This document shows positions 28,801-64,000 of a stretch of DNA of 64,000 nucleotides, one piece after another. The stretch comes from a virus. The notes under the pieces are model-generated. The model was not told where the DNA came from, did no database searches, and saw only the letters and a program-made list of their open reading frames with translations. A program made the position numbers and the translations under genes. The number at the start of each line of letters is the position of its first letter. The first letter of the stretch is position 1. The stretch is taken from positions 1-64,000 of IMG/VR virus record IMGVR_UViG_3300042898_006838, one strand, 5' to 3'.

Positions 28801-29636
28801 GACGACATGGTCGTGCACAGAGCGATGTTGCCGATGCTGGCTAGGACGTCATCCTTCACCTTCTGGCTGCCGTCAGCCAGTCCAGACTGAGCTCGTCCCG
28901 AGCGCTGCCTGTCACTACCCGTGTTCAGGGACACGCGCGGGGCGGTCAGGGACAGGCCGACCTGGTCGTCTGGCGGCGGACCGCCTGCCCCCGACTCAAG
29001 GACACGGCCTGGGACCGGTCCGACCTGAGGCCTGACGGCTGACAGCCCGTCGGGGCTGTTGTCTTCCTCGCCGGCCTGACGGCGGGCGGCTCGTCGCCTG
29101 GCCTCTGATGACCGGAGCTCGGCAACGGCGGCGTCAATCTCGTCCTTGAAGGCTGAACTGCTGTCCCTGATGGCCTCAAGGTCTTCACGTTTCGGCGGAG
29201 TCAGCAGCCCGGCGGCGGCGGCGATTGAAATTTTAGCCGTCTCGCTGAGAATGGTCTGAGACAGGGCCTGAAGCTCGTCGAGGATCTCGATGGCCTCGCG
29301 AAGCGTAGCAGCCAAGGCAATATTGACGTCGCCGCTGATCATGGTCATGAACGCTGACTGGATGTCGGCGAAGATGTCGTCGAAGAGTGTTGACGACCCT
29401 GGGCTCGTGCTGGGGATGTTGACGGAGACAGCGTAGTCACCGGCGTCGATAGCCCCTGGCTCCACGGCATCTACGGCCTGATGACCTTGGGTGGCAAGCT
29501 GCTCCCCTGCCAGGCTCGTTTCCTGATCCACTCTCAACGCCAGAGCATCGGCCTCCGTGTCGGCAAGTATCCTGTCGGCGCTTTCATTGACCAGGACCCC
29601 GAGCTCGTCTCGGCTCATGTTGTCGACCGGCTTCAA
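25818..29636 (-). CDS. Large baseplate-region structural protein (helical ends, beta-rich repeated modules in the centre)
   Basis: 1272 aa; overlaps both neighbours by 4 nt; shares repeated modules with the wedge proteins. Confidence 0.65.
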   Translation of the reverse strand: MKPVDNMSRDELGVLVNESADRILADTEADALALRVDQETSLAGEQLATQGHQAVDAVEPGAIDAGDYAVSVNIPSTSPGSSTLFDDIFADIQSAFMTMISGDVNIALAATLREAIEILDELQALSQTILSETAKISIAAAAGLLTPPKREDLEAIRDSSSAFKDEIDAAVAELRSSEARRRAARRQAGEEDNSPDGLSAVRPQVGPVPGRVLESGAGGPPPDDQVGLSLTAPRVSLNTGSDRQRSGRAQSGLADGSQKVKDDVLASIGNIALCTTMSSLDVSQKTREKAARALERLSAVVTVLTAATSESFVLDIQSAIQDLAVGPLQALGREVQSRLNLMDKFLKQVTTPLPTLKSTVRIIGEVPDDLVLANSLLSSCGLRMDNFCGGQGMLELSLAVDSNLGAIKPRVEKFGRVCLSLLPPAIDPAAELTPEIQRPDREAQLILSAPLSSGQSQVSARFPRQNVTRVITAPAPTVQALISQSVAPGDSEVRLTVSLSNPIAPVGSLTLEPLAPWAETLRYSSFVVDGAEHVFTLIDLPSAVPHGSGLTATVTGQHRDTFTDVYQQRSEISGGSGSLNVGGEGEHRHRLNYSSSTFDAVTGDYVFSLSSPYSGMDHKPQVTGTIADKRKTALYRPDIRLPAERFKIVAGSLSEIRHATNTAFNFGASVGPGDLLVISDDENDTPVTVVSVDNIGSPTNIVLSADYHNGAVDNVTLVKVPATTAPASMFFTARLAARQVEELRISALTPGGASLPLVCRAMVDTGESTRRLSRLDGNVWGQVTTPGNRQRLKTAAAMFEPGDVGLQIQVQGRYPRTQVYGQVSAVVDARTIDFDSSTTMAGAINCTGSDIVWDGVGAKTRFTSEIGVGDVIAIGSQRATVTAVSASSVSFTPGMAVDNGVTVHVIVSLAVSEPVTSTMRRFSLSRAPQEILDVVSVQLLADAETWQFNLSAATTKNHGLQRLDVSPTLQIIPGTLTSFPTPTTSVKTRVDPDVVPPGSTILRAEFDDPSKPPLLVPLIPLSPVPPGAKLYIGKDEMLYTSAVSSGTGITFTIAAPGTPRAYSAGVDVCVLTSDAVTDLILSLVPETTWDLPFETWIMDLERHLKLFNARLCRVLQGRPEDIGQVAALMSASAGAVALAIGALQITLNALLTGLGGLEALDKLIDNAKSAGMDKLVLALKSGDVQEVAQMKASASTANGQMLQRIVAYRSKLTTFGPALKAERLADQLRGNETSTRVLGETRAGFNKAAASDIKRRRDAARRQKQEAKEVTR

Positions 29637-30322
29637 AGGAAACGCTCCATCTTCGAGGCCACGGCGCTACGCAGCTGGCTGATCTTGCTCTGGCTGAAGC
29701 CTGTGAGCCTGGCCATGTCCTTGCCGCTGGAAACCTTCTTGCGTCCGTGGGTGCCGGTGGTGAACTCGTAGACGATCTTCTCCTCCGGCGTCAGCTCGTA
29801 CCATATGTCATCGAGGACGGCCTGCTGCCGGCCGCCGACCATGTCCTTGTCCTGCGGGTCCACGAAGCCGCTGCCCATGACGTCCATGCGCAGGCTGCGC
29901 TGCATCGTCAGCACGGCCTTTGGGTTCCAGGACAGGGCGTCGGCGAGCTCACTGGTCGTCGCCGGCCGGCCCTTGGCGCTGGACAGGTCGCCGCTCACGC
30001 GCGTGAACACGCCGATGGACTGGGCCCTGGCTTCCGGGATCGTGGCGATGTTGCTCCTGGCAATGGAGAAGCGGTTAAGGCGCCTGAGGTTGGTGAAGAC
30101 ATAGGTTCGGAAACTGGCACCGGCCGTTGACTTGAAGCCATCAGCGCTGGTCACCAGGATCTTGTCCGCCTCGCTCTCGATCAGGGCCGTGCTGACGCTG
30201 TTGCTGCGGTACTTGTTGACCTGGCTCTGGGTCAGAGGACGGAGCCTTCGACGCAGCTCGTTGAGAGCCGCTAGGTCCTTTTTCATCTTCCATCTGGCGA
30301 CCAGGGCCTCGTCACTGTCCAC
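29633..30322 (-). CDS. RNA polymerase sigma-70 family factor (FliA/WhiG/SigF-like size)
   Basis: 229 aa; region 2-like GASFRTYVFTNLR, region 3-like GRPATTSELADALSW, region 4 HTH ELTPEEKIVY..SGKDMARLTGFSQSKISQLR. Confidence 0.85.
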   Translation of the reverse strand: MDSDEALVARWKMKKDLAALNELRRRLRPLTQSQVNKYRSNSVSTALIESEADKILVTSADGFKSTAGASFRTYVFTNLRRLNRFSIARSNIATIPEARAQSIGVFTRVSGDLSSAKGRPATTSELADALSWNPKAVLTMQRSLRMDVMGSGFVDPQDKDMVGGRQQAVLDDIWYELTPEEKIVYEFTTGTHGRKKVSSGKDMARLTGFSQSKISQLRSAVASKMERFL

Positions 30323-30325
30323 TGG

Positions 30326-33199
30326 CTACCCCCGAAAAGGTGTGTTGCCGTTCATGAGTTTTGTCATGGCCTCTACCAGGCTCTGAATTTCCGGCCTAAA
30401 AGCGTTGCCAGTGTAGCTGGTTTTCGTAACGTCGCGGACCGTAGATTTGAGGACCTGCGTCATCAGCTGTCGCTCGGTGACCATACTTCGGTCCGTGAAC
30501 TGCTTCACAAACAGGTCAGCGGCATCCGGGCTTCGGTCCAGGAGACCTTGGTAGTGGCCGACGACAGTGCGCGGCAGAACGTCCTCGCTCCCGACCGGCG
30601 TGCCGATGGCCTTGTTGTAGTGCACGGTACTCCCGGTGGCCAGCGATGTGCGACTGCCGTACTCGTAGGGCATGGCGCCACAGCCAAGGATCAGGCGGTA
30701 GAGCTTGTCCACGGGCCTGTCGACGTCTCCATCCAGGCCCTTGCCGTTCTTGAACCTCTCGGGAACGTCGTAGTGCTCGGACTCGTGACTGTTCGTGGGA
30801 ACGAGAGAGGACATGTAGTAGGCAGGGAATGAACTCTTCTCCGGGTCCGGGACCTTGTGCGGCCTGCTCTCGCTTCCGTCTTCAGTACCACCGTCCTTGA
30901 ACGCCTCTTTGCCGCCGATCCAGGCATAAGGATCTCCCTCGTCCCAGAACCGTGGAGCGGTGACGGACACGGACGTCGAGGCGTTGCCGCCGCCTCCGCC
31001 GACGGAGATGGAGTGGGTGACGGAGGTGATGAGTCCGATGATGCTGCGGTTGCTGTCTACGACCAGGGTCGGAAATCCAGCTACGGGTCTGGGGTTGAAT
31101 GGCAACTCAAACCTTGGAAGTGACCTCGTCTGGTACCGGCGCCAGAGGAATTCTGTCTCCACGATCTTGGTCATGTACCGGCGGACAGCCGCTTCGTCAT
31201 CATTCCTGGCGATGATGCTGTGAGCCCTGGCCGTGTCGTCGTCGAAGTCGACGACGATTCCTGAAAGCTGTTCTTCCGGCGTCAGGTACGCCCAGTCCGT
31301 GAACGCGCCTGTACCACCTTTTTCTTCGACGATGCTCTGCTCTTCGCTTTCAGCCACCAAGCTCTGCCCAGAGTCGTCGCTGTTCGGCTCCACGGCCTCT
31401 GGAAGAAGGCCGACGAAGACGTGCTTGCCTTTGACCAACTTGCTCGTGCCCGTGGCGTTGAGGATCGCCAGCGGATTACTGGGTACGCCGTTCTTGATGT
31501 ACTCGAAGTGCAGGTGCTTGCCAGTGACGCGTCCGCTTTGACCCATGACACCGATGATCTGTCCGCTCTCTACGGTAGCACCGGTGACGACGTTGGCCGG
31601 GATGGATCCCGGTTTCAAGTGGAAGTAGTTCGTACGCACGCCGTTGGCGTGGTCGATGTTCACCTGGTAGCCGGCAAACGACGTCGGGCTGGCGATGCCG
31701 GCGAAGGATACGATGCCTTTGTCGATGGCTCTGATCTTCACATTCCCGGACGCCGAGAGATCAATGCCTTGGTGATTGGCAACCTTGCCAGTCGTTGGGT
31801 GTATTCGGCTTCCGAAGCCACTGGTCTCCTGGTACGCACCGATGATCGGAGAGCTCATGCCGGCACGTGCTACGGATGGCACGGCTCCGGCCGGGATCAC
31901 GGCGCTGGATCCGAAGTTGCCGGGCCCGAAGTACATGTCATAGACGCCCTCTTCCATGGCGATGGTGGTGATGAAGCGTGTGGGCTCCGCCATCAGGTCT
32001 CGCTGCATACCGAAGCTGGTGGTGTCGCGAGGGAAGATGACGTTACATCGAGGGATGGCTGCGAACCTGGTGTCTGGAAGGCACAGGTACTGGGCCAGCA
32101 GCGGCTTGGTCTCCAGACCCTCGTCGACGGTAGCAGCCTTGACTCCGCCGCTGACCGCGTCCAGGCGCACCAACTCGTCACGCAGCGACTGCAGCGTCTT
32201 GACCAGTGAGTCAAGATTCTGATCTTCGATGTCGACGGTGGCGTCGGCAAAGGCCTGTTTTACGTCAGCGTCTATCTCACCGTTGCTGGTCTCGGACGTG
32301 ATCGTGATCGACACCTGGTCCTCAACGCCGAGACCACCAGCCGACAGCACCTGCTTGATCTGGCTCTGGACCTCATCTGTAAACTTTCCTACCAGCTGAG
32401 GAGCCGTAGGAGTCCCGTCCTCGACGAGGCGTGGCTGTGGATTGCAGATTATCTGGTACCGAAACACGGCCAGTGTGTTCTCGATGATCTGCATCAGCGA
32501 CGTCTGACCGCTGACGCTGAGGACATCGTTTTTCATCACCGACAGCAGGTTTTCTCGACTCAGTAGCAGGTCAATGTTCTCATCTTTCGGCGACATCCAA
32601 CGCGCGTCGAGGAGCAGGTTGGCATTGGCTTTGTTGAAGAAGACGTTTCCGTTCGGCTCCTTCATCGACTCGTTCATGACGTTGACGGCCACGGACTGAT
32701 GGCTCTTGTCGCTGTTGGCGGCAAAGACTTGTTCGAGACGCGATGACAGGCTTGCACCTGACACGGGTGCGTCGATGCCCACGGACCCACTGTTGCCGAA
32801 GAAGGCGTTGATGCGGGTGGCGGCAATAGGGGCCGGGAATCCGCCGCGGCTGGTGTCGTAGTAGTAGAGCTTCATCTGCTCCCAGTACGTGGAGTAGCCA
32901 GCGCAATGGAATGACAGGTTCCTGCTCGACGGCGTCTTGGAGAAGCTGTCACCCACGATCTCGCCCTCGAAGAGCAGCGGCCAGTCGTCTTCGTCGTGGT
33001 TCTCGCGGATATCTAGGTCACTGTAGAAGACATGGACGCGCGCGCGCTTGAACCCCTCGTACTCGATTCCGGGCACAGGTGGGACGGTGAGGCTGGCCTC
33101 GGAGTTCTTGCTGTTGGATCCGCTGACGCTGACGGAGCTGACCTTGCTGACCAAGATACCTTCGATGAAGACGCGGAGCTGGATGTGGTCTGTTCTCAC
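30326..33199 (-). CDS. Baseplate hub-like protein with inserted M23 metallopeptidase domain
   Basis: 957 aa; intact M23 motifs HQGID and HLH at about 31460-31850; hub-like LRVFIEG..LLFEGEI N-terminus and GLITSVTHSI C-terminal motif. Confidence 0.8.
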   Translation of the reverse strand: MRTDHIQLRVFIEGILVSKVSSVSVSGSNSKNSEASLTVPPVPGIEYEGFKRARVHVFYSDLDIRENHDEDDWPLLFEGEIVGDSFSKTPSSRNLSFHCAGYSTYWEQMKLYYYDTSRGGFPAPIAATRINAFFGNSGSVGIDAPVSGASLSSRLEQVFAANSDKSHQSVAVNVMNESMKEPNGNVFFNKANANLLLDARWMSPKDENIDLLLSRENLLSVMKNDVLSVSGQTSLMQIIENTLAVFRYQIICNPQPRLVEDGTPTAPQLVGKFTDEVQSQIKQVLSAGGLGVEDQVSITITSETSNGEIDADVKQAFADATVDIEDQNLDSLVKTLQSLRDELVRLDAVSGGVKAATVDEGLETKPLLAQYLCLPDTRFAAIPRCNVIFPRDTTSFGMQRDLMAEPTRFITTIAMEEGVYDMYFGPGNFGSSAVIPAGAVPSVARAGMSSPIIGAYQETSGFGSRIHPTTGKVANHQGIDLSASGNVKIRAIDKGIVSFAGIASPTSFAGYQVNIDHANGVRTNYFHLKPGSIPANVVTGATVESGQIIGVMGQSGRVTGKHLHFEYIKNGVPSNPLAILNATGTSKLVKGKHVFVGLLPEAVEPNSDDSGQSLVAESEEQSIVEEKGGTGAFTDWAYLTPEEQLSGIVVDFDDDTARAHSIIARNDDEAAVRRYMTKIVETEFLWRRYQTRSLPRFELPFNPRPVAGFPTLVVDSNRSIIGLITSVTHSISVGGGGGNASTSVSVTAPRFWDEGDPYAWIGGKEAFKDGGTEDGSESRPHKVPDPEKSSFPAYYMSSLVPTNSHESEHYDVPERFKNGKGLDGDVDRPVDKLYRLILGCGAMPYEYGSRTSLATGSTVHYNKAIGTPVGSEDVLPRTVVGHYQGLLDRSPDAADLFVKQFTDRSMVTERQLMTQVLKSTVRDVTKTSYTGNAFRPEIQSLVEAMTKLMNGNTPFRG

Positions 33200-54244: not shown

Positions 54245-54664
54245 TCAGACATCAACATCAGAGTTGACGTCAAGGGTCCCGGCCTGAGAGAAGACACGGC
54301 GAGAGCTGTCGCTGGCTCGAAACGCGAGCTTTACCTTCTCCGGCGCTTCGTAGTTGGTTTGTGTCTGAGGGTTCCACCGCTGGCCGCTGGGAGTGACGTG
54401 AGGTTTGAAGGTTCCGATCTTGCCCATACGCACGCGTCCGCCAGCGAGTACGATGTACGAAATCTGATCGGCGATACCGAAGACGATGTCCTTCACGGCC
54501 TGGCGACTGAGCTCGGCACCCAGCACGGGCACGAACACGGTCTTGTTGAGATGGTCGTAGAACTCGTCCTGACGAACGACTCGATCGCGAATGCTGTCCC
54601 TGATCTTCTTGGCCAGGGTCGACTTGGAGATGGCTCGCTTGTCTACCGTCATCTCGTCTGTCAT
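54245..54664 (-). CDS. HU/IHF family histone-like DNA-binding protein
   Basis: LSRQAVKDIV..GGRVRMGKIGTF..RWNPQT..KLAFRAS matches HU/IHF signatures; has an N-terminal extension. Confidence 0.85.
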   Translation of the reverse strand: MTDEMTVDKRAISKSTLAKKIRDSIRDRVVRQDEFYDHLNKTVFVPVLGAELSRQAVKDIVFGIADQISYIVLAGGRVRMGKIGTFKPHVTPSGQRWNPQTQTNYEAPEKVKLAFRASDSSRRVFSQAGTLDVNSDVDV

Positions 54665-54667
54665 TCC

Positions 54668-54697
54668 GTTATACCTCGCAAGACTCTGGTTTTCACG
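54668..54697 (-). promoter_or_regulatory. Candidate phage promoter, copy 1 (CGTGAAAA-N17-ATAAC)
   Basis: In a divergent intergenic gap upstream of the HU gene; same bipartite motif as at 61739-61769. Confidence 0.5.
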
Positions 54698-56735: not shown

Positions 56736-56995
56736 ACAGGTACCCGGCGCGGCAAGAACAGTGTGACCGAGAAGGCTGCCGTCCCGCGAGGCTGAGACCG
56801 GGAGCGACGGTGCGCGTGCAAGGAGTTGTCAACGGAGTCATCGGCCCGTTGGTCGAGGGACGCGTGTTGATCTCCAAGGCCAGCGATCTGGCCCCGGAAG
56901 TTGATGCGGTACTTGTGGCAACAAGAGAGTACGGTCGGCGTTGGTTTCACACCCGAGGCCACCCATTCCGAGTCGTTGAGGAGATCTGCGCATGA
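56732..56995 (+). CDS. Hypothetical protein (87 aa)
   Basis: ATGA overlaps at both ends. Confidence 0.55.
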   Translation: MNRYPARQEQCDREGCRPARLRPGATVRVQGVVNGVIGPLVEGRVLISKASDLAPEVDAVLVATREYGRRWFHTRGHPFRVVEEICA

Positions 56996-59178
56996 CCAGC
57001 GAGAACGTGGCGCTTGAACGCCATACTTACGACGACCCGTTCCTGGACATGGCCTCGACGAAGCTGCCGAAGAGCTTCAAGAAGCTCATGGAGCTCTGCC
57101 AGATCTTCGCGCTCACGCACCCGCAGATCAGCCCCATCATCCAGCGCCTGGCCGAGTATCCGATCACCAGCCTCGTCTACAAAGGCGACCGTGAGAGTGA
57201 GCGTGTCCACAAGGACATCTTCGAGGTCAAGCTCCGGATCATGGAGAAGATGATCGAGTGGGGCCTGGACTACCACGCCTACGGAAACTGCTTCATCAGC
57301 ATCAGCTTCCCGTTCCTGCGCATGTACCGATGCCAGACCTGCAAGACCATCTACCAGAGCCGTGAGGTCAACTACCAGTACATCGGCGGCCGATTCCAGG
57401 GTCGATGCCGAAGCTGCGGCGGAGACCGAGAGTTCGATGCCATGGACCAGTACGTCAAGGACGCCAGCGGCATCAACCTCTTCCGCTTCGAGCCGCAGCT
57501 GATGACGCCGAAGTTCAACCGTGTCACCGGCCGCTACTTCTACTACTACGACATGCCTCCGGACCTGGTACGCAGCGTCGAGATCGGTGACAAGGACATC
57601 ATCGACAGCACGCCCGTCGAGTACCTGCGGTGCGTGAAGCTCAAGCGCAAGATGAAGCTCAAGCGCGTCTTCCACTTCAAGCGCCCGACACTCAGCGGCC
57701 GCGACATGCAGTGGGGTTTTCCGCTGGTGCTGCCAGCGCTGAAGGATGCCTACCTCAACCAGATCTACAAGAAGGCCGACGAGGCTATTGCCCTCGAACA
57801 CAGCGTGCCCCTGCGCGTGATCTTCCCGCAGCCGCAGACCAAAGACCCAATGCAGATGCTGGCGCTGGGCAACTTCAAGAACTTCATGGCCAAGAACATC
57901 AGGTACTGGCGCCAGGACAAGAACGCGATCATCACCGCGCCCATGCCCATCGGCAGCATGAACATCGGCGGCGACGCCCAGGCCTACAGCACCATCCAGG
58001 CGCGGGTGAAGGTCGTCGACGAGATCATCGGCGCGTGCATGGTCACCCGTGGCTTCGTGCTCGGCGGTGAGAACTGGTCAAGCGCCAGCATCAGCCAGCG
58101 GGTCATGGAGAACAGCTTCATGAACTACCTGCGTCGCATGGACGCCTGTCTGCAGTGGGTTCGTGACGAGGTTGGCGCGTACATGGGCCTGCCGCCGTGC
58201 GCCGTGTCGATGAAGCCATTCAAGAAGGTCGACGACGTGCAGATGCTGCAGCTGATAGTCGGCCTGGCCCAGCAGAAGCGTGTCAGCTGGCAGGAGACGC
58301 TTGGGCGACTGGACCTGGATAGCCGGGACGAGCTCGACGTCATCGAGAAGGAGGCCGTGCGCTACACCGAGCTCATGGTCCAGGAACTCATCGGCCAGAA
58401 CGAGGCCAGCTCCAAGGCTCTCGTGGCCCAGACCGTGGCCCAGGACCAGGCGGCTGGCGTTCAGGAGGTCCTGCAGGCCCAGGCCATGCGAGGTCAGGCC
58501 GTTGGTGCCGATGCCGCTGGGCAGATGAGCAAGGCCCAGTTCGAGGCTCAGCAGGCGGAGGTGGCAGCCAACACGCCGCCAGACCCGGCGTCGGCGGCAG
58601 CATCGGCTGAGGCCGAGAAGGACCAGGCCGTGGCCGAGAACTTCCGCGTCCGCAGTCAGCAGATGAGCGGGCAGCAGCCGGAGCAGCCGCAGGAGCAGAT
58701 GGTGGACGTGAACATGCAGCGTCAGATCCAGATGTGGGCCGGCGAGCTGCTGTCGATGTCCGGCGACGAGAAGCGTAAGCAGCTGCAGTACATGCACGAG
58801 CAGAACCCGGAGATCGCCCAGGCCGTGGTGGAGGTGGCCAGGGAGATGGAGCAGAGCGGTGGCGGTCAGCAGACCGCCGGTCCCGGTCCAGCTATCAGCA
58901 GGAGCCAGGACGCCAAGTCCATGACCGACGCCATCATGTCCCAGGTCAAGAGCCCAGATGAACTCGCTCAGCGCCTGTCCATGATCGATGCCCGGCAACA
59001 GTCAGCCGTGCTCCAGGAGATCCAACGCCGAAACCCTCAGCTCTTCATCAAGGTCATGCAGTTGATGAACGCCGAACGAGCCAAGGGGATGGAGTCCGGA
59101 GCCGGCCGTGGTAACGTGCCAGACAGCAAACCGCTTCCAGAACAGAAACCGCCGCAGCGCGAGGAGTCACCGGTATGA
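56992..59178 (+). CDS. Portal protein with Zn-ribbon insertion and Gln-rich C-terminal extension
   Basis: 728 aa; portal-like THPQISPIIQRLAEYPI, GLDYHAYGNCF, VFHFKRP..WGFPLVLPALK; insertion CQTC..CRSC. Confidence 0.75.
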   Translation: MTSENVALERHTYDDPFLDMASTKLPKSFKKLMELCQIFALTHPQISPIIQRLAEYPITSLVYKGDRESERVHKDIFEVKLRIMEKMIEWGLDYHAYGNCFISISFPFLRMYRCQTCKTIYQSREVNYQYIGGRFQGRCRSCGGDREFDAMDQYVKDASGINLFRFEPQLMTPKFNRVTGRYFYYYDMPPDLVRSVEIGDKDIIDSTPVEYLRCVKLKRKMKLKRVFHFKRPTLSGRDMQWGFPLVLPALKDAYLNQIYKKADEAIALEHSVPLRVIFPQPQTKDPMQMLALGNFKNFMAKNIRYWRQDKNAIITAPMPIGSMNIGGDAQAYSTIQARVKVVDEIIGACMVTRGFVLGGENWSSASISQRVMENSFMNYLRRMDACLQWVRDEVGAYMGLPPCAVSMKPFKKVDDVQMLQLIVGLAQQKRVSWQETLGRLDLDSRDELDVIEKEAVRYTELMVQELIGQNEASSKALVAQTVAQDQAAGVQEVLQAQAMRGQAVGADAAGQMSKAQFEAQQAEVAANTPPDPASAAASAEAEKDQAVAENFRVRSQQMSGQQPEQPQEQMVDVNMQRQIQMWAGELLSMSGDEKRKQLQYMHEQNPEIAQAVVEVAREMEQSGGGQQTAGPGPAISRSQDAKSMTDAIMSQVKSPDELAQRLSMIDARQQSAVLQEIQRRNPQLFIKVMQLMNAERAKGMESGAGRGNVPDSKPLPEQKPPQREESPV

Positions 59179-60888: not shown

Positions 60889-61653
60889 TCAGCTCAGAGG
60901 CGGCGTCGCGCGCTTGGCCTGCTCGGACATGGCCTTGGCAATGGCCTCTGACATCATGCTGATCTGCTCCTCGCGGCTGTACTGGCCCTTGAGATCCTCA
61001 AGGGTTCCGACCACGCGGTCGACCATGAGGAGCTTGCTGCTGCCGCTGTCGTAGCCGCGCTTGCGCAGGTCGGCGAGGTCGCCGCGGGCGTGGAGCTCAC
61101 GCGACAGGTTCGCCTTCGCCTCCTTGCGCATGTCCTTCTCTGCTCGTCCGGCCAGGAACACGACCACAGCCTCGTAAGCCGCCAGGTACGCGCCAGCCGC
61201 CGTGGCCAACGCGTCCTTCTTGCCGCTGCCGACGATGTCCTCGGCGTCAGCGGTGGCCATGGCCGCGGTGATGAGCCCGGCCTCGCGCTGGGCCACGACC
61301 GACATCATCGCCGACCAGACGTCGTCAGGCAGCCCCTCGGGACCGGCGCGGCGCTTGCCGTCGACGATCTTGGCCTTGAAGTCGGCCGTCGCCCGGGCCA
61401 GCATCTCAGCGCCGTTCAGGTGGCGGTCGGCAAAGCTCAGGACCTCCTGCCGCATCTCCATCAGCTCCCCGGCGCGAGGGTGGCGGCCGACGAAGGTTTC
61501 GGGCTTGCTGGCCCGGACCTTGTCGACGGCGTCGACGCGGTACGACGGCATGGCGCCGTCGACGGCGCGGTCGAAACGGCGCTTGGCCTTGGACTTGGAA
61601 TCGGTACCGATGATTTTGGCGCCGACGTGCTTGATCTTCTTGAACATACCCAT
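60889..61653 (-). CDS. Hypothetical helical protein (254 aa)
   Basis: Start re-called to ATG 61653 with AAGGAG RBS; isolated transcription unit. Confidence 0.7.
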   Translation of the reverse strand: MGMFKKIKHVGAKIIGTDSKSKAKRRFDRAVDGAMPSYRVDAVDKVRASKPETFVGRHPRAGELMEMRQEVLSFADRHLNGAEMLARATADFKAKIVDGKRRAGPEGLPDDVWSAMMSVVAQREAGLITAAMATADAEDIVGSGKKDALATAAGAYLAAYEAVVVFLAGRAEKDMRKEAKANLSRELHARGDLADLRKRGYDSGSSKLLMVDRVVGTLEDLKGQYSREEQISMMSEAIAKAMSEQAKRATPPLS

Positions 61654-61738
61654 GACTGACTCCTTGACAGGCCCTGGGGTGTTAACCCTGGGCGGTGGAT
61701 GAGAGTGAGAACAGACCACCTGTTTCTCTCTCACCTCT

Positions 61739-61769
61739 GTTATGCCCGTGTCCTGACGCGATTTTCACG
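61739..61769 (-). promoter_or_regulatory. Candidate phage promoter, copy 2 (CGTGAAAA-N18-ATAAC)
   Basis: In a divergent intergenic gap upstream of the 61653 gene; matches 54668-54697. Confidence 0.5.
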
Positions 61770-61785: not shown

Positions 61786-64000
61786 ATGTACCAGCACGCC
61801 GAACGCACCTTCTCCGACGTCAAGCGAAACCTGGAGACCTACGTCCGGGGTCTGTTCCCCATCGAGGGCAAGAAGCGGACGCTGGTGCTCCGTGACCTGG
61901 AGATCAGGGACAACGCCGACCCAGGTGACTACGCCAGTCAGCGTCAGGCGCGCATGGCCGGCGAGAGCTGGAGCATCCCAGTCATCGCCGTCATGGAGCT
62001 GTTGGAAGGTGGCAAGGTCATCGACCGGGCGAAGATGAAGATCATCGACCTGCCGCGGCTGACCAACCGCGGTAGCTACATCGTCAACGGCACGGAGTTC
62101 ATGTTCCCGACGCAGAAGCGCCTGCGATCAGGACCCTACGTGCGCCTGGGCGAGAACGAGGAGCTGCGCACGTTCTTCAACGTCGCCAAGGGCCGCAGCT
62201 TCCACCTGGGTCTTCACCCGACCAAGGGCCACTTCCAGTTCCAGATCGAGAGTAGCAAAAACATCCCCCTGTACCCGCTGCTGCAGGTCCTGGGCGTCAG
62301 CGACGACGATATGGTCAGGGCCTGGGGCCGAGAGGTCTGGAAGGCCAACGTCGTCACCGACCCTGGTCAGCGAACCAAGGCGCTGCAGACCATCTACGAG
62401 AAGATGTCGTACGCACGAGATGATGTACCGGCTCCCACCGTCGAGCAGCTGCCTGATGCCATCAAGGCCATATTCTCAGCCACGGTTATCGACGGCGAGA
62501 ACACCGAGCTGACCATCGGTGAGCGTCACGACACAGTCAGTGGCCGGGCGGTGATGTTGGCGGCGGCGAAGATGTTGGGCGTGGCCCGAGGCGAGCGCGA
62601 GGAAGATAACCGCGACAGCCTCATCCACAACGACATCGTGGATCTTGGCGACTTCATCGTCGAACGCTTCCGAGACCCGCAGTTCCGAGGCCGCATCGTC
62701 AGGGCCGTGAAGTTCAACGTCGACCGTCGCGACAAGGTCAGCCAGATCATCAGCCGCGACAGCTTTCAGCGCCCGGTCGACAGCATGCTCACTGAGAGCC
62801 AACTGGCTCAGACCCCGAACCAGAACAATCCGCTGGGTATGATCAGCGACTACACACAGCTCACGGTCCGGGGCGAGGGTGGCATCCAGAACGACAACGC
62901 CCTGACACGCAGTGTCCGGGCCCTGGATCCCAGCCACCTGGGATTCATCGACCCCAGCCACACGCCCGAGGGCCAGGGCGTGGGCACGACCCTGCACCTG
63001 ACGACGAACACGGAGAAGCGTGGTCGCGACCTCGTGGCCCGTGTCATCGACGTCAAGACCGGCAAGGCCGTGGACCTCACTCCGGTACAGATCTTCAAGG
63101 CCACAGTCGCCTTCCCCGAGTCCTGGGACGGGAAGAAGCTCACGGGCCCGAAGGTCAAGGTCAGCCGACGCGGCGAGATCTCGAACGTGCCGGTGTCCGA
63201 GGCCCAGTACGTGTTCTCGAAGCCAGAGCACCTGATCGACGTCAACAGCGCCAGCATCCCCTTCCTCAGCCACAACAACGGCACGCGCGTGATGACGGCC
63301 AGCAAAATGGGCGCCCAGGCCAAGCCGCTGGAGACGCCGGAAGCGCCGTTGGTGCAGGTGGACAGCGGCGAGGGCACGACCGTCGAGGCCGTGGTCGGAG
63401 CCGCATTCTCACCGAAGTCTCCGGTCACCGGTATCGTGGAGAAGGTAGAGGAAGACGCGGTCATCATCTCCGGTCAGCGCGTGTCCATTCCCCGCCACTT
63501 CCCGTTGAACAGCAACAACTTCCTGCACGCACAGCCGACGGTGAAGGTCGGTGACAAGGTCTCCAAGGGCCAGGTCATCGCCGACACCAACTACACGGAC
63601 AAGGGCGTCATGGCCCTGGGGAAGAATCTGCTCGTGGCTTACACGCCCTACAAGGGCATGAACGTCGAAGACGGTGTGGTCATCAGCGAGACCGGCGCCA
63701 AGAAGATGACCAGCGAGCACATGTACCAGCAGCCGTACATGTTTGACGTCGACACGGTCATGGACCTGAAGAAGTTCCAGGCCTACTTCCCGGCCAAGAT
63801 CAAGAGTGCAGATGCCGAGAAACTCGACAGTCAGGGCGTGATCAAGAAGGGCCAGGTCGTCGGCCCCGGGTCCATCCTCGTCGCGGCCATGCGCAGGCAC
63901 GCGCCGACCACTGAGAGCCAGCGCCTGGCCGCTGTCAGCCGCATCCTGGCCAAAGAGTTCCGTGACGACAGCCTACGCTGGGAGAAGGACGTCACGGGCG
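61786..64000 (+). CDS. rpoB: DNA-directed RNA polymerase beta subunit, divergent phage-encoded homologue (partial, runs off window end)
   Basis: Not in ORF track. Manual translation shows RpoB motifs in order: DLPRLTNRGSYIVNGTE, SQLAQTPNQNNPLG, DPSHLGFIDPSHTPEGQGVG, SASIPFLSHNNGTRVMTASKM, MALGKNLLVAYTPYKGMNVEDGVVISE, RDDSLR. Confidence 0.92.
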   Translation, partial: MYQHAERTFSDVKRNLETYVRGLFPIEGKKRTLVLRDLEIRDNADPGDYASQRQARMAGESWSIPVIAVMELLEGGKVIDRAKMKIIDLPRLTNRGSYIVNGTEFMFPTQKRLRSGPYVRLGENEELRTFFNVAKGRSFHLGLHPTKGHFQFQIESSKNIPLYPLLQVLGVSDDDMVRAWGREVWKANVVTDPGQRTKALQTIYEKMSYARDDVPAPTVEQLPDAIKAIFSATVIDGENTELTIGERHDTVSGRAVMLAAAKMLGVARGEREEDNRDSLIHNDIVDLGDFIVERFRDPQFRGRIVRAVKFNVDRRDKVSQIISRDSFQRPVDSMLTESQLAQTPNQNNPLGMISDYTQLTVRGEGGIQNDNALTRSVRALDPSHLGFIDPSHTPEGQGVGTTLHLTTNTEKRGRDLVARVIDVKTGKAVDLTPVQIFKATVAFPESWDGKKLTGPKVKVSRRGEISNVPVSEAQYVFSKPEHLIDVNSASIPFLSHNNGTRVMTASKMGAQAKPLETPEAPLVQVDSGEGTTVEAVVGAAFSPKSPVTGIVEKVEEDAVIISGQRVSIPRHFPLNSNNFLHAQPTVKVGDKVSKGQVIADTNYTDKGVMALGKNLLVAYTPYKGMNVEDGVVISETGAKKMTSEHMYQQPYMFDVDTVMDLKKFQAYFPAKIKSADAEKLDSQGVIKKGQVVGPGSILVAAMRRHAPTTESQRLAAVSRILAKEFRDDSLRWEKDVTG

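What the first reader, a model, noticed from the sequence alone, without database searches (positions are those of the whole stretch)
61786..64000. Phage-encoded, cellular-type multisubunit RNA polymerase beta subunit
Seen: at least 738 codons with colinear RpoB motifs, strongly diverged and compact, near the portal operon and without the ribosomal protein genes that precede chromosomal rpoB. Known: some large tailed phages encode multisubunit RNAPs; phiKZ-type subunits are split and barely alignable, while this one is continuous and bacterial-like, as in deep-branching RNAP-encoding phages reported from metagenomes. Inference: with the sigma factor, HU and promoter motif, this forms an autonomous transcription system that is probably uncharacterised experimentally.
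Basis: partly seen in the sequence, partly recalled or inferred. Interest (0 to 1): 0.8.

Follow-up and report, generated by a model that had tools for sequence, protein, structure and literature searches.

The report
Single-chain phage beta-beta' RNA polymerase
The gene at the end of this window encodes both large subunits of a bacterial-type RNA polymerase joined into one 2019-residue protein in a 156-kb phage; it belongs to a very large, almost unstudied phage family that also carries its own sigma factor and may bring the enzyme into the cell inside the virus particle.

Summary
The ORF starting at 61786 runs to base 67845 of the 155,932-bp virus record. It encodes 2019 aa: a compact RpoB homologue joined by about 14 residues to a compact RpoC homologue with NADFDGD.

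All catalytic residues checked are kept. The beta' N-terminal zinc ribbon, the lineage-specific inserts SI1, SI2 and SI3, and the beta' C-tail are missing.

At least 120 clusters (90% identity) of full-length fused relatives exist in metagenomes. Of the 150 best 50%-identity clusters, 123 are fused-size. The family shares only 23-29% identity with bacterial rpoBC, whereas different bacterial phyla share 48% or more. It forms its own clan in a tree, inside none of the five or so phyla sampled.

The order portal, RNAP, large terminase is conserved. The closest cultured relatives are Salmonella phage Arash and Vibrio phages D69/D148/D181. In Arash, beta plus the N-terminal half of beta' is one protein and was the most-detected protein in virions, along with a sigma factor. 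The window encodes a homologue of that sigma (29633-30322, minus strand).

No alpha, omega or second RNAP was found.

Best reading: a sigma-dependent single-chain RNAP core, possibly packaged in the virion. This scan has reported the same family on other genomes.

The parts
61786..64000 (+). First 738 codons of the 2019-aa fused beta-beta' RNA polymerase gene. The gene continues to base 67845 of the full record, outside the window. The beta moiety is about aa 1-980, the linker about aa 981-995, and the beta' moiety about aa 996-2019.
   Evidence: ORF and translation. Pfam Rpb2_3/6/7 followed by Rpb1_1/2/4/5. PDB beta' chains match at E 4e-110. Profile mapping to Salmonella RpoB/RpoC.
62815..63012 (+). 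RNA_pol_Rpb2_3 (fork) domain, aa 344-409. It includes the equivalent of the rifampicin pocket. Relative to E. coli beta it carries D516N, H526D and S531T at aa 345, 355 and 360.
   Evidence: Pfam E 3.2e-12. Residue mapping and the sequence itself.
63520..64000 (+). Start of RNA_pol_Rpb2_6, the beta catalytic double-psi barrel region, from aa 579. It contains E628/D629, which correspond to E. coli beta E813/D814, at 63667-63672. The domain continues beyond the window to aa 893.
   Evidence: Pfam E 1.1e-53. Mapping. Both residues are invariant in 12 family members.
61739..61769 (-). It points away from the RNAP gene.
   Evidence: Sequence. GGCATAAC occurs 11 times in the genome against 3.6 expected; at least 8 of the 11 lie within 70 nt upstream of a gene start on the same strand. 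The motif sits at the same position in relative L008.
56992..59178 (+). Portal protein gene, 728 aa, two genes upstream on the same strand.
   Evidence: BLASTP E 8e-71 to the annotated portal Gp204 of Arash. E 2e-150 to the 722-aa protein beside the RNAP in L010, which has a weak PF05133 SPP1_portal hit on record.
29633..30322 (-). Diverged sigma-70-family factor, 229 aa. It is the likely specificity subunit of this polymerase and lies inside the tail/baseplate gene block.
   Evidence: BLASTP E 2e-16 to Arash sigma Gp10. A profile of 22 homologues hits only sigma factors in the PDB, best E 9e-7 over the full length. The AF2 model (pLDDT 81) matches sigma chains by Foldseek at E about 1e-8. Neighbours are a baseplate wedge protein and a peptidase-bearing 957-aa protein.
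54245..54664 (-). HU-like DNA-binding protein gene, preceded by a variant of the same motif (GTGAAAA-N14-GGTATAAC at 54668-54697, minus strand).
   Evidence: PF00216 E 4.2e-9, above the cut-off. Sequence. An HU gene lies near the RNAP in L008 and L010 as well.

Best explanation
The gene encodes the complete catalytic core of a bacterial-type, two-barrel RNA polymerase as one 2019-residue chain.

Shown by sequence: a trimmed beta homologue is joined through about 14 residues to a trimmed beta' homologue that starts at the equivalent of E. coli beta' residue 30. All active-site elements checked are present.

Inferred (about 70%): the covalent link replaces the job of the alpha dimer and omega in holding beta and beta' together. 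Promoter recognition then comes from the phage's own small sigma-70-family protein (29633-30322), giving a two-protein holoenzyme that reads the GTGAAAA-N14-GGG(C/T)ATAAC motifs in front of non-structural genes.

Inferred, weaker (about 50%): the enzyme and its sigma are made late with the particle proteins, packed into the virion and delivered with the DNA. Early genes could then be transcribed without host RNA polymerase and probably in the presence of rifampicin.
For: Architecture:
- Pfam Rpb2_3/6/7 are followed by Rpb1_1/2/4/5 in one ORF.
- Bacterial beta' chains in the PDB match at E 4e-110.

Residues kept, invariant in 12 members spanning 37-66% identity:
- beta R678, E813, D814, K1065, K1073, R1106, H1237
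- beta' R425, N458, D460, D462, D464
- the second zinc site, C814/888/895/898
- trigger-loop M932 and H936

Selection for function: inteins in relatives sit exactly after NADFDGD and in the trigger loop.

Family:
- At least 120 full-length fused clusters at 35-75% identity, on contigs up to 199 kb.
- 123 of the 150 best 50%-identity clusters are fused-size.

Phage lineage, not a host gene:
- 23-29% identity to bacteria, against 48-90% among bacteria.
- A separate clan with SH-aLRT 100 and a 2.3 substitutions/site stem.
- Scores far below the NCBIfam rpoB/rpoC cut-offs.

Sigma:
- It is homologous to Arash Gp10 and has a sigma profile and fold.

No alpha, omega or second RNAP was found.

Packaging:
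- The order portal-RNAP-TerL is conserved in L008, L010, Arash and Vibrio D69.
- In Arash virion mass spectrometry, Gp206 had the most spectra (3516), Gp216 1210 and sigma Gp10 467 (PMC10585845).

Motif: enriched, oriented towards genes, and conserved in position in a 66%-identity relative.
Against: - No activity, assembly or virion data exist for this phage.
- The Arash particle preparation also contained ribonucleotide reductases, ligases and a helicase. Its authors themselves allow carry-over of abundant proteins. Spectral counts also favour long proteins.
- The absence of alpha and omega rests on Pfam models scanned over six frames. A diverged or non-homologous partner, or host alpha, is not excluded.
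- Sigma-polymerase binding could not be tested.
- The beta' clamp-helix residues that contact sigma-70 in E. coli (R275, R278, E295) are replaced by L, Q and L. This fits a co-evolved sigma but proves nothing.
- With one RNAP and one sigma, the enzyme that transcribes the late genes is unexplained.
- The record is linear and 96% complete, so a small part of the genome is unseen.
Confidence: 0.8

Rival explanations
1. The protein is a functional single-chain RNAP that is not packaged. It is made after infection and serves middle or late transcription, while host RNA polymerase starts the infection.
For: The gene lies in a late-looking structural block, so the new enzyme appears late. The Arash 'virion' proteome contains many clearly non-structural enzymes. 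The only RNAP in the genome must otherwise cover every phase or share the work with the host enzyme.
Against: Arash Gp206 gave the highest spectral count of all proteins, above the major capsid protein. The position between portal and terminase is conserved across relatives down to about 30% identity. The sigma gene sits among tail and baseplate genes in both this phage and Arash. The promoter-like motif precedes non-structural genes, not late ones.
Confidence: 0.3
2. The fused chain still needs host alpha, and perhaps omega, to fold or work. The active enzyme would then be a phage-host hybrid rather than an autonomous one.
For: Natural bacterial beta-beta' fusions (Helicobacter and Wolbachia types, NCBIfam PRK09603 and PRK14844; a 2253-aa Saccharibacteria ORF in L047) occur in genomes that keep alpha; this is my own knowledge, not tested here. 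No phage alpha was found, which is what a hybrid would also predict.
Against: The beta' C-terminal tail that omega latches onto (my own knowledge) is missing; the alignment ends at beta' 1347. A packaged enzyme would have to carry host alpha along. Other phage two-barrel RNAPs (phiKZ nvRNAP, crAss-like gp66) work without alpha (PMC7598289 and my own knowledge).
Confidence: 0.2
3. It is a host rpoBC captured recently, or a chimeric contig or prophage edge, as in the first reader's refutation case.
For: The motifs are bacterial-like, and bacterial beta' chains are the best PDB matches.
Against: Identity to every bacterial phylum sampled is a flat 27-29%. The clan is separate on a long stem. Scores are below half of the NCBIfam equivalog cut-offs. 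The flanking genes are portal, terminase and an SNF2 helicase. There are over 120 fused relatives on phage-sized contigs. Of the 80 best loci from a scan of one genome per bacterial and archaeal species, only one was a fused relative, and it lies on a 204-kb phage-like contig binned in a MAG.
Confidence: 0.01
4. It is an inactive polymerase relic that serves as a structural or DNA-binding particle protein.
For: It has lost the zinc ribbon and several inserts, and it sits among structural genes.
Against: Every catalytic residue checked is invariant across members that share only 37% identity. The inserts it lacks are lineage-specific ones that many bacteria also lack. Inteins in relatives sit at the active-site loop and trigger loop.
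Confidence: 0.03

Closest known systems
RNA polymerase of Salmonella phage Arash (Gp206 + Gp216, with sigma Gp10; OQ632216, PMC10585845)
   Same: Gp206 aligns with residues 24-1449 here at 31% identity. The gene follows the portal gene in the same order. The portal, large terminase and sigma are homologous. The sigma gene lies among particle genes in both phages.
   Different: In Arash the chain is cut after the active-site domain: Gp206 is beta plus the N-terminal half of beta' (1525 aa), and Gp216, ten genes away, is the C-terminal half. Here everything is one chain. Arash is a cultured enterobacterial phage with virion proteomics. This one is an uncultured 63% G+C phage of unknown host.
Vibrio phages D69, D148 and D181 (OZ195729 and others)
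   Same: These are the best matches among deposited phage genomes: 30% identity over 89% of the protein. They share the portal-small gene-RNAP order and fall in the same clan in the tree.
   Different: They have the same split as Arash (1527 + 609 aa), and all the genes are annotated as hypothetical. In D148 and D181 a homing endonuclease gene lies under the match. I found no experimental data.
mReC, the 'multisubunit RNAP-encoding Caudovirales' of Weinheimer and Aylward 2020 (PMC7481178)
   Same: These are uncultured tailed phages of about 100-300 kb with bacterial-like, alignable beta and beta' that branch outside all cellular groups. The subunits are compact, for example 1009 + 915 aa, which adds up to about the size found here.
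   Different: Every mReC row I read lists beta and beta' as two separate proteins, and some contigs carry two sets. The paper mentions fusion only for crAssphage. I could not place mReC sequences in my tree, so whether this fused family lies inside, beside or outside mReC is untested.
Bacterial fused beta-beta' (Helicobacter type NF007172/PRK09603, Wolbachia type NF011417/PRK14844; a Saccharibacteria example in L047)
   Same: Beta and beta' are in one reading frame, in the order beta then beta'.
   Different: The bacterial proteins are about 2250-2890 aa with a full complement of domains. This protein scores 557 and 522 bits against cut-offs of 5372 and 4632. The Saccharibacteria fusion groups with its own phylum in the tree, so the fusions arose independently.
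Other phage two-barrel RNAPs: phiKZ/AR9 virion and non-virion enzymes, crAss-like gp66, Thermus phage P23-45 gp96 (PMC7598289, PMC10770324)
   Same: They share the likely role: a phage-owned polymerase of the cellular type, in several cases packaged and injected, that needs no host RNAP. crAss-like gp66 and P23-45 gp96 are also single chains.
   Different: Those enzymes are split into four or five pieces (phiKZ, AR9) or are so diverged that sequence searches barely find them, and none is known to use a sigma factor. This one aligns end to end with bacterial rpoB and rpoC and comes with a sigma-70-family partner. The PHROG families for the phiKZ/AR9-type subunits match only weakly (E 1e-24 or worse), against 3e-116 and 5e-74 for two unnamed families.

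Membership tests
Cellular-type (two double-psi-barrel) RNA polymerase catalytic core | beta' barrel carrying the Mg-binding NADFDGD loop | tested here: met
   NADFDGD lies at aa 1351-1357. It maps to E. coli beta' 458-464. D1353, D1355 and D1357 are invariant in the family. Pfam Rpb1_2 E 3e-31.
Cellular-type (two double-psi-barrel) RNA polymerase catalytic core | beta barrel with the two active-site lysines and the ED pair | tested here: met
   K765/K773 correspond to beta K1065/K1073, and E628/D629 to E813/D814. R501, R806 and H880 are also kept, and all are invariant. Pfam Rpb2_6 E 1e-53.
Cellular-type (two double-psi-barrel) RNA polymerase catalytic core | Bridge helix and trigger loop | tested here: met
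   The bridge-helix region aligns; beta' 789 maps to aa 1645, with a GNRKG core. Trigger-loop M1771 and H1775 correspond to beta' M932 and H936. Pfam Rpb1_5 E 3e-21.
Canonical bacterial RpoB / RpoC (NCBIfam equivalogs TIGR02013, TIGR02386) | Score above the curated equivalog cut-off | tested here: not met
   rpoB scores 308 bits against a cut-off of 801. rpoC scores 532 bits against 963.
Canonical bacterial RpoB / RpoC (NCBIfam equivalogs TIGR02013, TIGR02386) | beta' N-terminal four-cysteine zinc-binding domain (E. coli C70, C72, C85, C88) | tested here: not met
   The segment between GLFD and WTHIKL is 21 aa with no cysteine, against 53 aa in Salmonella. The same holds in all 136 family members where the flanks could be matched.
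Canonical bacterial RpoB / RpoC (NCBIfam equivalogs TIGR02013, TIGR02386) | Works with alpha dimer and omega encoded in the same genome | tested here: not met
   Six-frame scans found no PF01000 or PF01193 match. PF01192 gave only a 13-bit match, antisense to a real gene, while controls were found in 14 of 14 genomes. Use of host alpha is not testable here.
Canonical bacterial RpoB / RpoC (NCBIfam equivalogs TIGR02013, TIGR02386) | Placement inside the bacterial radiation with ordinary branch length | tested here: not met
   Identity to bacteria is 23-29%, against at least 48% between phyla. The phage clan is separated by 2.3 substitutions per site and joins between the CPR group and the other bacteria. 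The tree is unrooted, has 21 bacteria and used a quick search.
Fused phage beta-beta' family (Arash / Vibrio D69 relatives and their uncultured full fusions) | End-to-end homology to the family, with beta then beta' in one frame | tested here: met
   At least 120 clusters cover 95-100% of the query at 35-75% identity and 2000-2110 aa. 123 of the top 150 50%-identity clusters are at least 1950 aa.
Fused phage beta-beta' family (Arash / Vibrio D69 relatives and their uncultured full fusions) | Gene placed after the portal gene and before the large terminase gene | tested here: met
   In this genome the portal is at 56992-59178, the RNAP at 61786-67845 and TerL at 69194-70852. The order is the same in L008 and L010. 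Arash and D69 keep the portal-RNAP part.
Fused phage beta-beta' family (Arash / Vibrio D69 relatives and their uncultured full fusions) | Own small sigma-70-family factor elsewhere in the genome | tested here: met
   See part 29633-30322.
Fused phage beta-beta' family (Arash / Vibrio D69 relatives and their uncultured full fusions) | Presence of polymerase and sigma in virions | not testable with these tools
   This is known only from Arash mass spectrometry. No particle data exist for this uncultured phage.
mReC lineage (PMC7481178) | Separate beta and beta' proteins that group in the deep-branching phage clade of the RNAP tree | tested here: inconclusive
   A deep, separate placement was reproduced against bacteria only. 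The mReC rows show two proteins, not one. No mReC sequence was available to co-align.
phiKZ/AR9-type jumbo-phage multisubunit RNAPs | beta and beta' each split into two or more polypeptides, two enzyme sets, no sigma | tested here: not met
   There is one continuous ORF, no paralogue in the genome and a sigma is present. The PHROG families of that type match only locally.
Sigma-70 family (for the partner at 29633-30322) | Regions 2, 3 and 4 recognisable by curated models | tested here: inconclusive
   Pfam gives only Sigma70_r3, at 18.8 bits against a cut-off of 25.3. Regions r2, r4 and r4_2 were not found. NCBIfam SigBFG scores 19 bits against 234. However, a family profile aligns over the full length with SigB and SigF structures (E 9e-7 and 1e-5), and the top 59 PDB hits (E up to 0.09) are all sigma factors. 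The predicted fold also matches sigma chains.

The most novel reading that the evidence does not exclude
This family is the smallest natural holoenzyme of the cellular RNA polymerase type: one 220-kDa beta-beta' chain plus one 25-kDa sigma. It would need no alpha, no omega and no N-terminal zinc ribbon. It would be packed into the capsid and ejected with the DNA to read its own GTGAAAA-N14-GGGCATAAC promoters, insensitive to rifampicin. That would make it a sigma-dependent virion RNA polymerase, a combination not described for any phage I could find.
Probability: 0.35. Interest if true: 0.75.

Novelty: new variant of a known kind. Interest (0 to 1): 0.55.

Why it matters
Phage-encoded bacterial-like RNA polymerases were reported from metagenomes in 2020 as two-subunit enzymes, and were used mainly as a phylogenetic marker. 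How they work was left open.

This gene shows a fully fused form of such a bacterial-like enzyme, and the database searches show that among this protein's relatives the fused form is the common one. It comes with a matching sigma and a candidate promoter.

If the protein is active on its own with that sigma, three things follow:
- It would be a two-gene, bacterial-type transcription system small enough for structural work and for use as an orthogonal expression tool.
- It would be a natural experiment on what alpha, omega and the beta' zinc ribbon are needed for.
- It would be a new way for large phages to start infection independently of the host polymerase.

Cultured relatives (Arash, Vibrio D69) make this directly testable.

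Tried and rejected
Tools that gave nothing:
- Complex prediction (sigma with the beta' clamp region) was not available.
- The first MAFFT --auto run on 89 sequences timed out. I repeated it with a faster mode on 45 sequences.

Searches with no match or no useful result:
- Pfam Sigma70_r2, r4 and r4_2 six-frame scans of the genome found nothing.
- An omega-like match at 90581-90646 (13 bits) lies antisense to a 1054-aa gene and was discarded.
- No Gp23-type capsid match was found, so that mReC trait could not be used.
- A tblastn search for a second RNAP found nothing. A search for a second sigma with the family profile found nothing.
- Literature searches for a description of a fused phage rpoBC or for follow-ups of mReC found none. 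Subscription journals are not covered.

Idea rejected: the divergent neighbour at 60889-61734 (281 aa) might be an alpha-like partner.
- It has no family hit.
- The Atlas model is poor (pLDDT 0.41).
- It has no similarity to the gene at the same place in L008.

Host assignment was not attempted beyond noting 63% G+C.
Full report
**Observation.** The frame that opens with ATG at 61786 is still open at the window's last codon, 738 codons in all. The window is the first 64 kb of a 155,932-bp linear virus record that CheckV rates 96% complete. In the full record the same frame runs to base 67845 and gives a 2019-residue protein. Its third-position G+C of 0.85 matches the other genes of this 63% G+C genome, and GAGG lies 5 nt before the start codon.

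**What the protein is.** Pfam places RNA_pol_Rpb2 domains 3, 6 and 7 at residues 344-939. Rpb1 domains 1, 2, 4 and 5 follow at residues 1113-1799. So this is not a beta subunit awaiting a separate beta' gene. Beta and beta' are one polypeptide, and NADFDGD sits at 1351-1357. Bacterial beta' chains in the PDB match at E 4e-110.

A profile of 45 family members was aligned to Salmonella RpoB and RpoC, which share E. coli numbering. It gives this map:

| E. coli segment | Residues here |
|---|---|
| beta 49-228 | 17-186 |
| beta 421-933 | 253-756 |
| beta 1048-1340 | 759-994 |
| beta' 30-948 | 1008-1806 |
| beta' 1131-1347 | 1802-2013 |

The beta C-terminus is therefore tied by about 14 residues to a beta' that lacks its first 29 residues.

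Segments missing relative to E. coli (unless noted):
- the SI1 region of beta
- SI2 (beta 934-1047)
- beta 1135-1187
- the beta' zinc ribbon: residues 64-88 are absent, leaving 21 residues with no cysteine where Salmonella has 53
- SI3 (beta' 949-1130)
- the beta' C-terminal tail

Residues kept:
- beta R678, E813, D814, K1065, K1073, R1106, H1237
- beta' R425 and the three aspartates
- the second zinc site
- trigger-loop M932 and H936

These are invariant in twelve members that share as little as 37% identity.

The rifampicin-pocket positions read D516N, H526D and S531T, with R529Q as well. From my own knowledge, changes at these positions give resistance in E. coli. I therefore infer, without a test, that the enzyme is insensitive to rifampicin.

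**How common it is.**
- A word-indexed search returned at least 120 clusters (90% identity) of 2000-2110-aa proteins that cover 95-100% of the query at 35-75% identity. They lie on contigs up to 199 kb.
- About thirty more are 2400-2950 aa because they carry inteins.
- An exhaustive HMMER search with the beta' half alone listed 150 clusters at 50% identity, all with E of 1e-153 or better. Of these, 123 are at least 1950 aa, with the match starting near residue 1000. Only 9 are under 1150 aa.
- Stand-alone beta or beta' relatives on long contigs exist but are few, for example P0184 (1051 aa, 39% identity).
- The zinc ribbon is missing in all 136 members where the flanking motifs could be matched.
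- Inteins in relatives sit at two hot spots: immediately after NADFDGD (22 proteins) and in the trigger loop (12 proteins). That is where inteins are expected in an enzyme under strong selection for function.

**Relation to bacteria.** A scan of one genome per bacterial and archaeal species kept 80 loci.
- Only one was a fused relative: a 204-kb contig binned in a Bacteroidales MAG, which looks like a phage.
- The other 79 were ordinary rpoB-rpoC loci at 27-32% identity (best segment).

On 1944 trimmed columns:
- The query is 27-29% identical to every phylum sampled: Actinomycetota, Bacillota, Bacteroidota, Pseudomonadota and relatives, and the CPR group.
- Bacteria from different phyla share 48-90% (median 56%).
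- The phage proteins share 28-67% with each other.

An IQ-TREE analysis (LG+C20 PMSF, quick search) puts all 16 phage rows, including Vibrio phage D69, on one side of a branch with SH-aLRT 100. The stem is 2.3 substitutions per site and joins the bacterial subtree between the CPR group and the rest.

The tree is unrooted and long branches are present. It shows that the family lies inside none of the sampled phyla. It does not show how old the family is.

NCBIfam agrees. The protein scores 308 and 532 bits against rpoB and rpoC cut-offs of 801 and 963. It scores about a tenth of the cut-offs of the Helicobacter- and Wolbachia-type fused models. A fused 2253-aa rpoBC found by chance in a Saccharibacteria MAG groups with its own phylum, so that fusion is independent.

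**Surroundings.**
- Upstream on the same strand lies a 728-aa protein homologous to the annotated portal of phage Arash (E 8e-71) and to the protein next to the RNAP in a 45%-identity relative (E 2e-150).
- Downstream, outside the window, lie two small genes, the large terminase (phrog_675, E 4e-44) and an SNF2 helicase.
- The order portal-RNAP-terminase recurs in L008 and L010. The portal-RNAP part recurs in Arash and Vibrio D69.
- No ribosomal-protein gene precedes the RNAP gene.
- An HU-like gene lies at 54245-54664 (PF00216, E 4e-9).

**Partners.**
- Six-frame scans found no alpha N-terminal domain and no omega, while all 14 control genomes scored.
- There is no second RNAP.
That 229-aa protein is 28% identical to Arash sigma Gp10 (E 2e-16).
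- It has 48 clusters of homologues.
- Curated models barely see it.
- A profile of 22 homologues aligns over its whole length with SigB and SigF structures, and the top 59 PDB hits (E up to 0.09) are all sigma factors.
- An AlphaFold model (pLDDT 81) finds sigma chains as its top Foldseek matches.
- Its neighbours are a baseplate wedge protein and a 957-aa protein with an M23/endolysin-type peptidase. In Arash the sigma gene likewise follows a particle-borne cell-wall hydrolase.

**Promoter-like motif.**
- GGCATAAC occurs 11 times in the genome against 3.6 expected from composition.
- At least eight of the 11 copies lie within 70 nt upstream of a gene start on the same strand. They mostly have GGAA or GTGAAAA some 14-19 nt upstream, and all precede non-structural genes.
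- One copy lies in the 51-nt gap beside the RNAP gene and points the other way. A GGTATAAC variant precedes the HU gene.
- In a 66%-identity relative the motif sits at the same two positions.
- I read this as a candidate promoter for the phage holoenzyme. It has not been tested.

**Closest experimental knowledge.**
- In Salmonella phage Arash, Gp206 is beta plus the N-terminal half of beta' (1525 aa) and directly follows the portal region. Gp216 is the C-terminal half.
- Mass spectrometry of Arash particles gave Gp206 the highest spectral count of any protein (3516). Gp216 had 1210 and sigma Gp10 had 467.
- The same preparation also contained reductases, ligases and a helicase. The authors allow carry-over of abundant proteins (PMC10585845).
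- Weinheimer and Aylward described 97 uncultured phage contigs (mReC) with deep-branching beta and beta' (PMC7481178). The rows I read in their table list two separate proteins per set, for example 1009 + 915 aa, and sometimes two sets per contig. The text mentions fusion only for crAssphage.
- I found no paper that describes the fully fused form.

**Mechanism proposed.**
- Shown: a complete, conserved, single-chain catalytic core, a co-occurring sigma-family protein, no detectable alpha or omega, and a conserved place among particle genes.
- Inferred (about 70%): the tether replaces the alpha/omega assembly role, and the small sigma supplies promoter recognition.
- Inferred (about 50%): both proteins are made late, packaged and injected to transcribe the motif-bearing early genes.
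- Unexplained: who transcribes the late genes, given one RNAP and one sigma.

**Earlier work in this scan.** Other readers of this genome noted the fusion and the lost zinc ribbon (e1-5837627, e1-5837646, e1-5837636). Follow-up agents reported the same family on other genomes with the same closest relatives (e1-5644360, e1-5727817, e1-5362264, e1-5344837). My results agree with them and were obtained independently on this sequence.

Noticed in passing
relatives P0005-P0122 (no intein in the window's own gene); sites correspond to aa 1357-1380 and about 1776 of the protein, beyond the window's end: About 30 relatives are 2400-2950 aa because they carry inteins or homing endonucleases (PF14528, PF14890, PF05204). 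These sit at two hot spots: just after NADFDGD and inside the trigger loop (FHTGG). A few lie elsewhere, near aa 400, 610 and 950.
   Followed up: partly
L047:7659-14417 (+): A Candidatus Saccharibacteria MAG has rpoB and rpoC fused into one 2253-aa ORF. In the tree it groups with other CPR bacteria, so this is a bacterial fusion independent of the phage one.
   Followed up: partly
L011:7884-16490 (+): A 204-kb contig filed under a Bacteroidales MAG carries a 2869-aa fused phage-type RNAP with inserts. The contig is probably a phage genome binned with a bacterium, and might hint at a host.
   Followed up: no
whole record, e.g. 61739, 71306, 91959, 107999, 117088, 121580, 128090, 131189, 135083, 138103, 144059 (record coordinates; only the first is in the window): The motif GG(G)CATAAC recurs with GGAA or GTGAAAA some 14-19 nt upstream, in front of small non-structural genes. 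None lies in front of the structural operons or the RNAP gene.
   Followed up: partly
window 30326-33199 (-): A 957-aa protein next to the sigma gene carries an M23/endolysin-type peptidase domain at aa 455-581 (phrog_6700, E 2e-23). It is probably a particle-borne cell-wall hydrolase, like Arash Gp8.
   Followed up: no
PMC7481178, Supplementary Data 2: Several mReC contigs list two beta/beta' sets of different sizes, about 1360+1005 and 1007+904 aa. This might mean virion and non-virion enzymes in those phages. The phage studied here has only one set.
   Followed up: no
record 68155-68715 (+), just beyond the window: The 186-aa protein after the RNAP gene has a weak acyl-carrier-protein match (phrog_5934, E 4e-4). 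Another reader of this genome noted it as an ACP mimic.
   Followed up: no
L004 and hits H1, H2 (Vibrio phages D148, D181): In two of the three Vibrio phages a homing endonuclease gene lies within the RNAP region. Only the third, D69, was examined; there the two RNAP pieces are 1527 and 609 aa.
   Followed up: no
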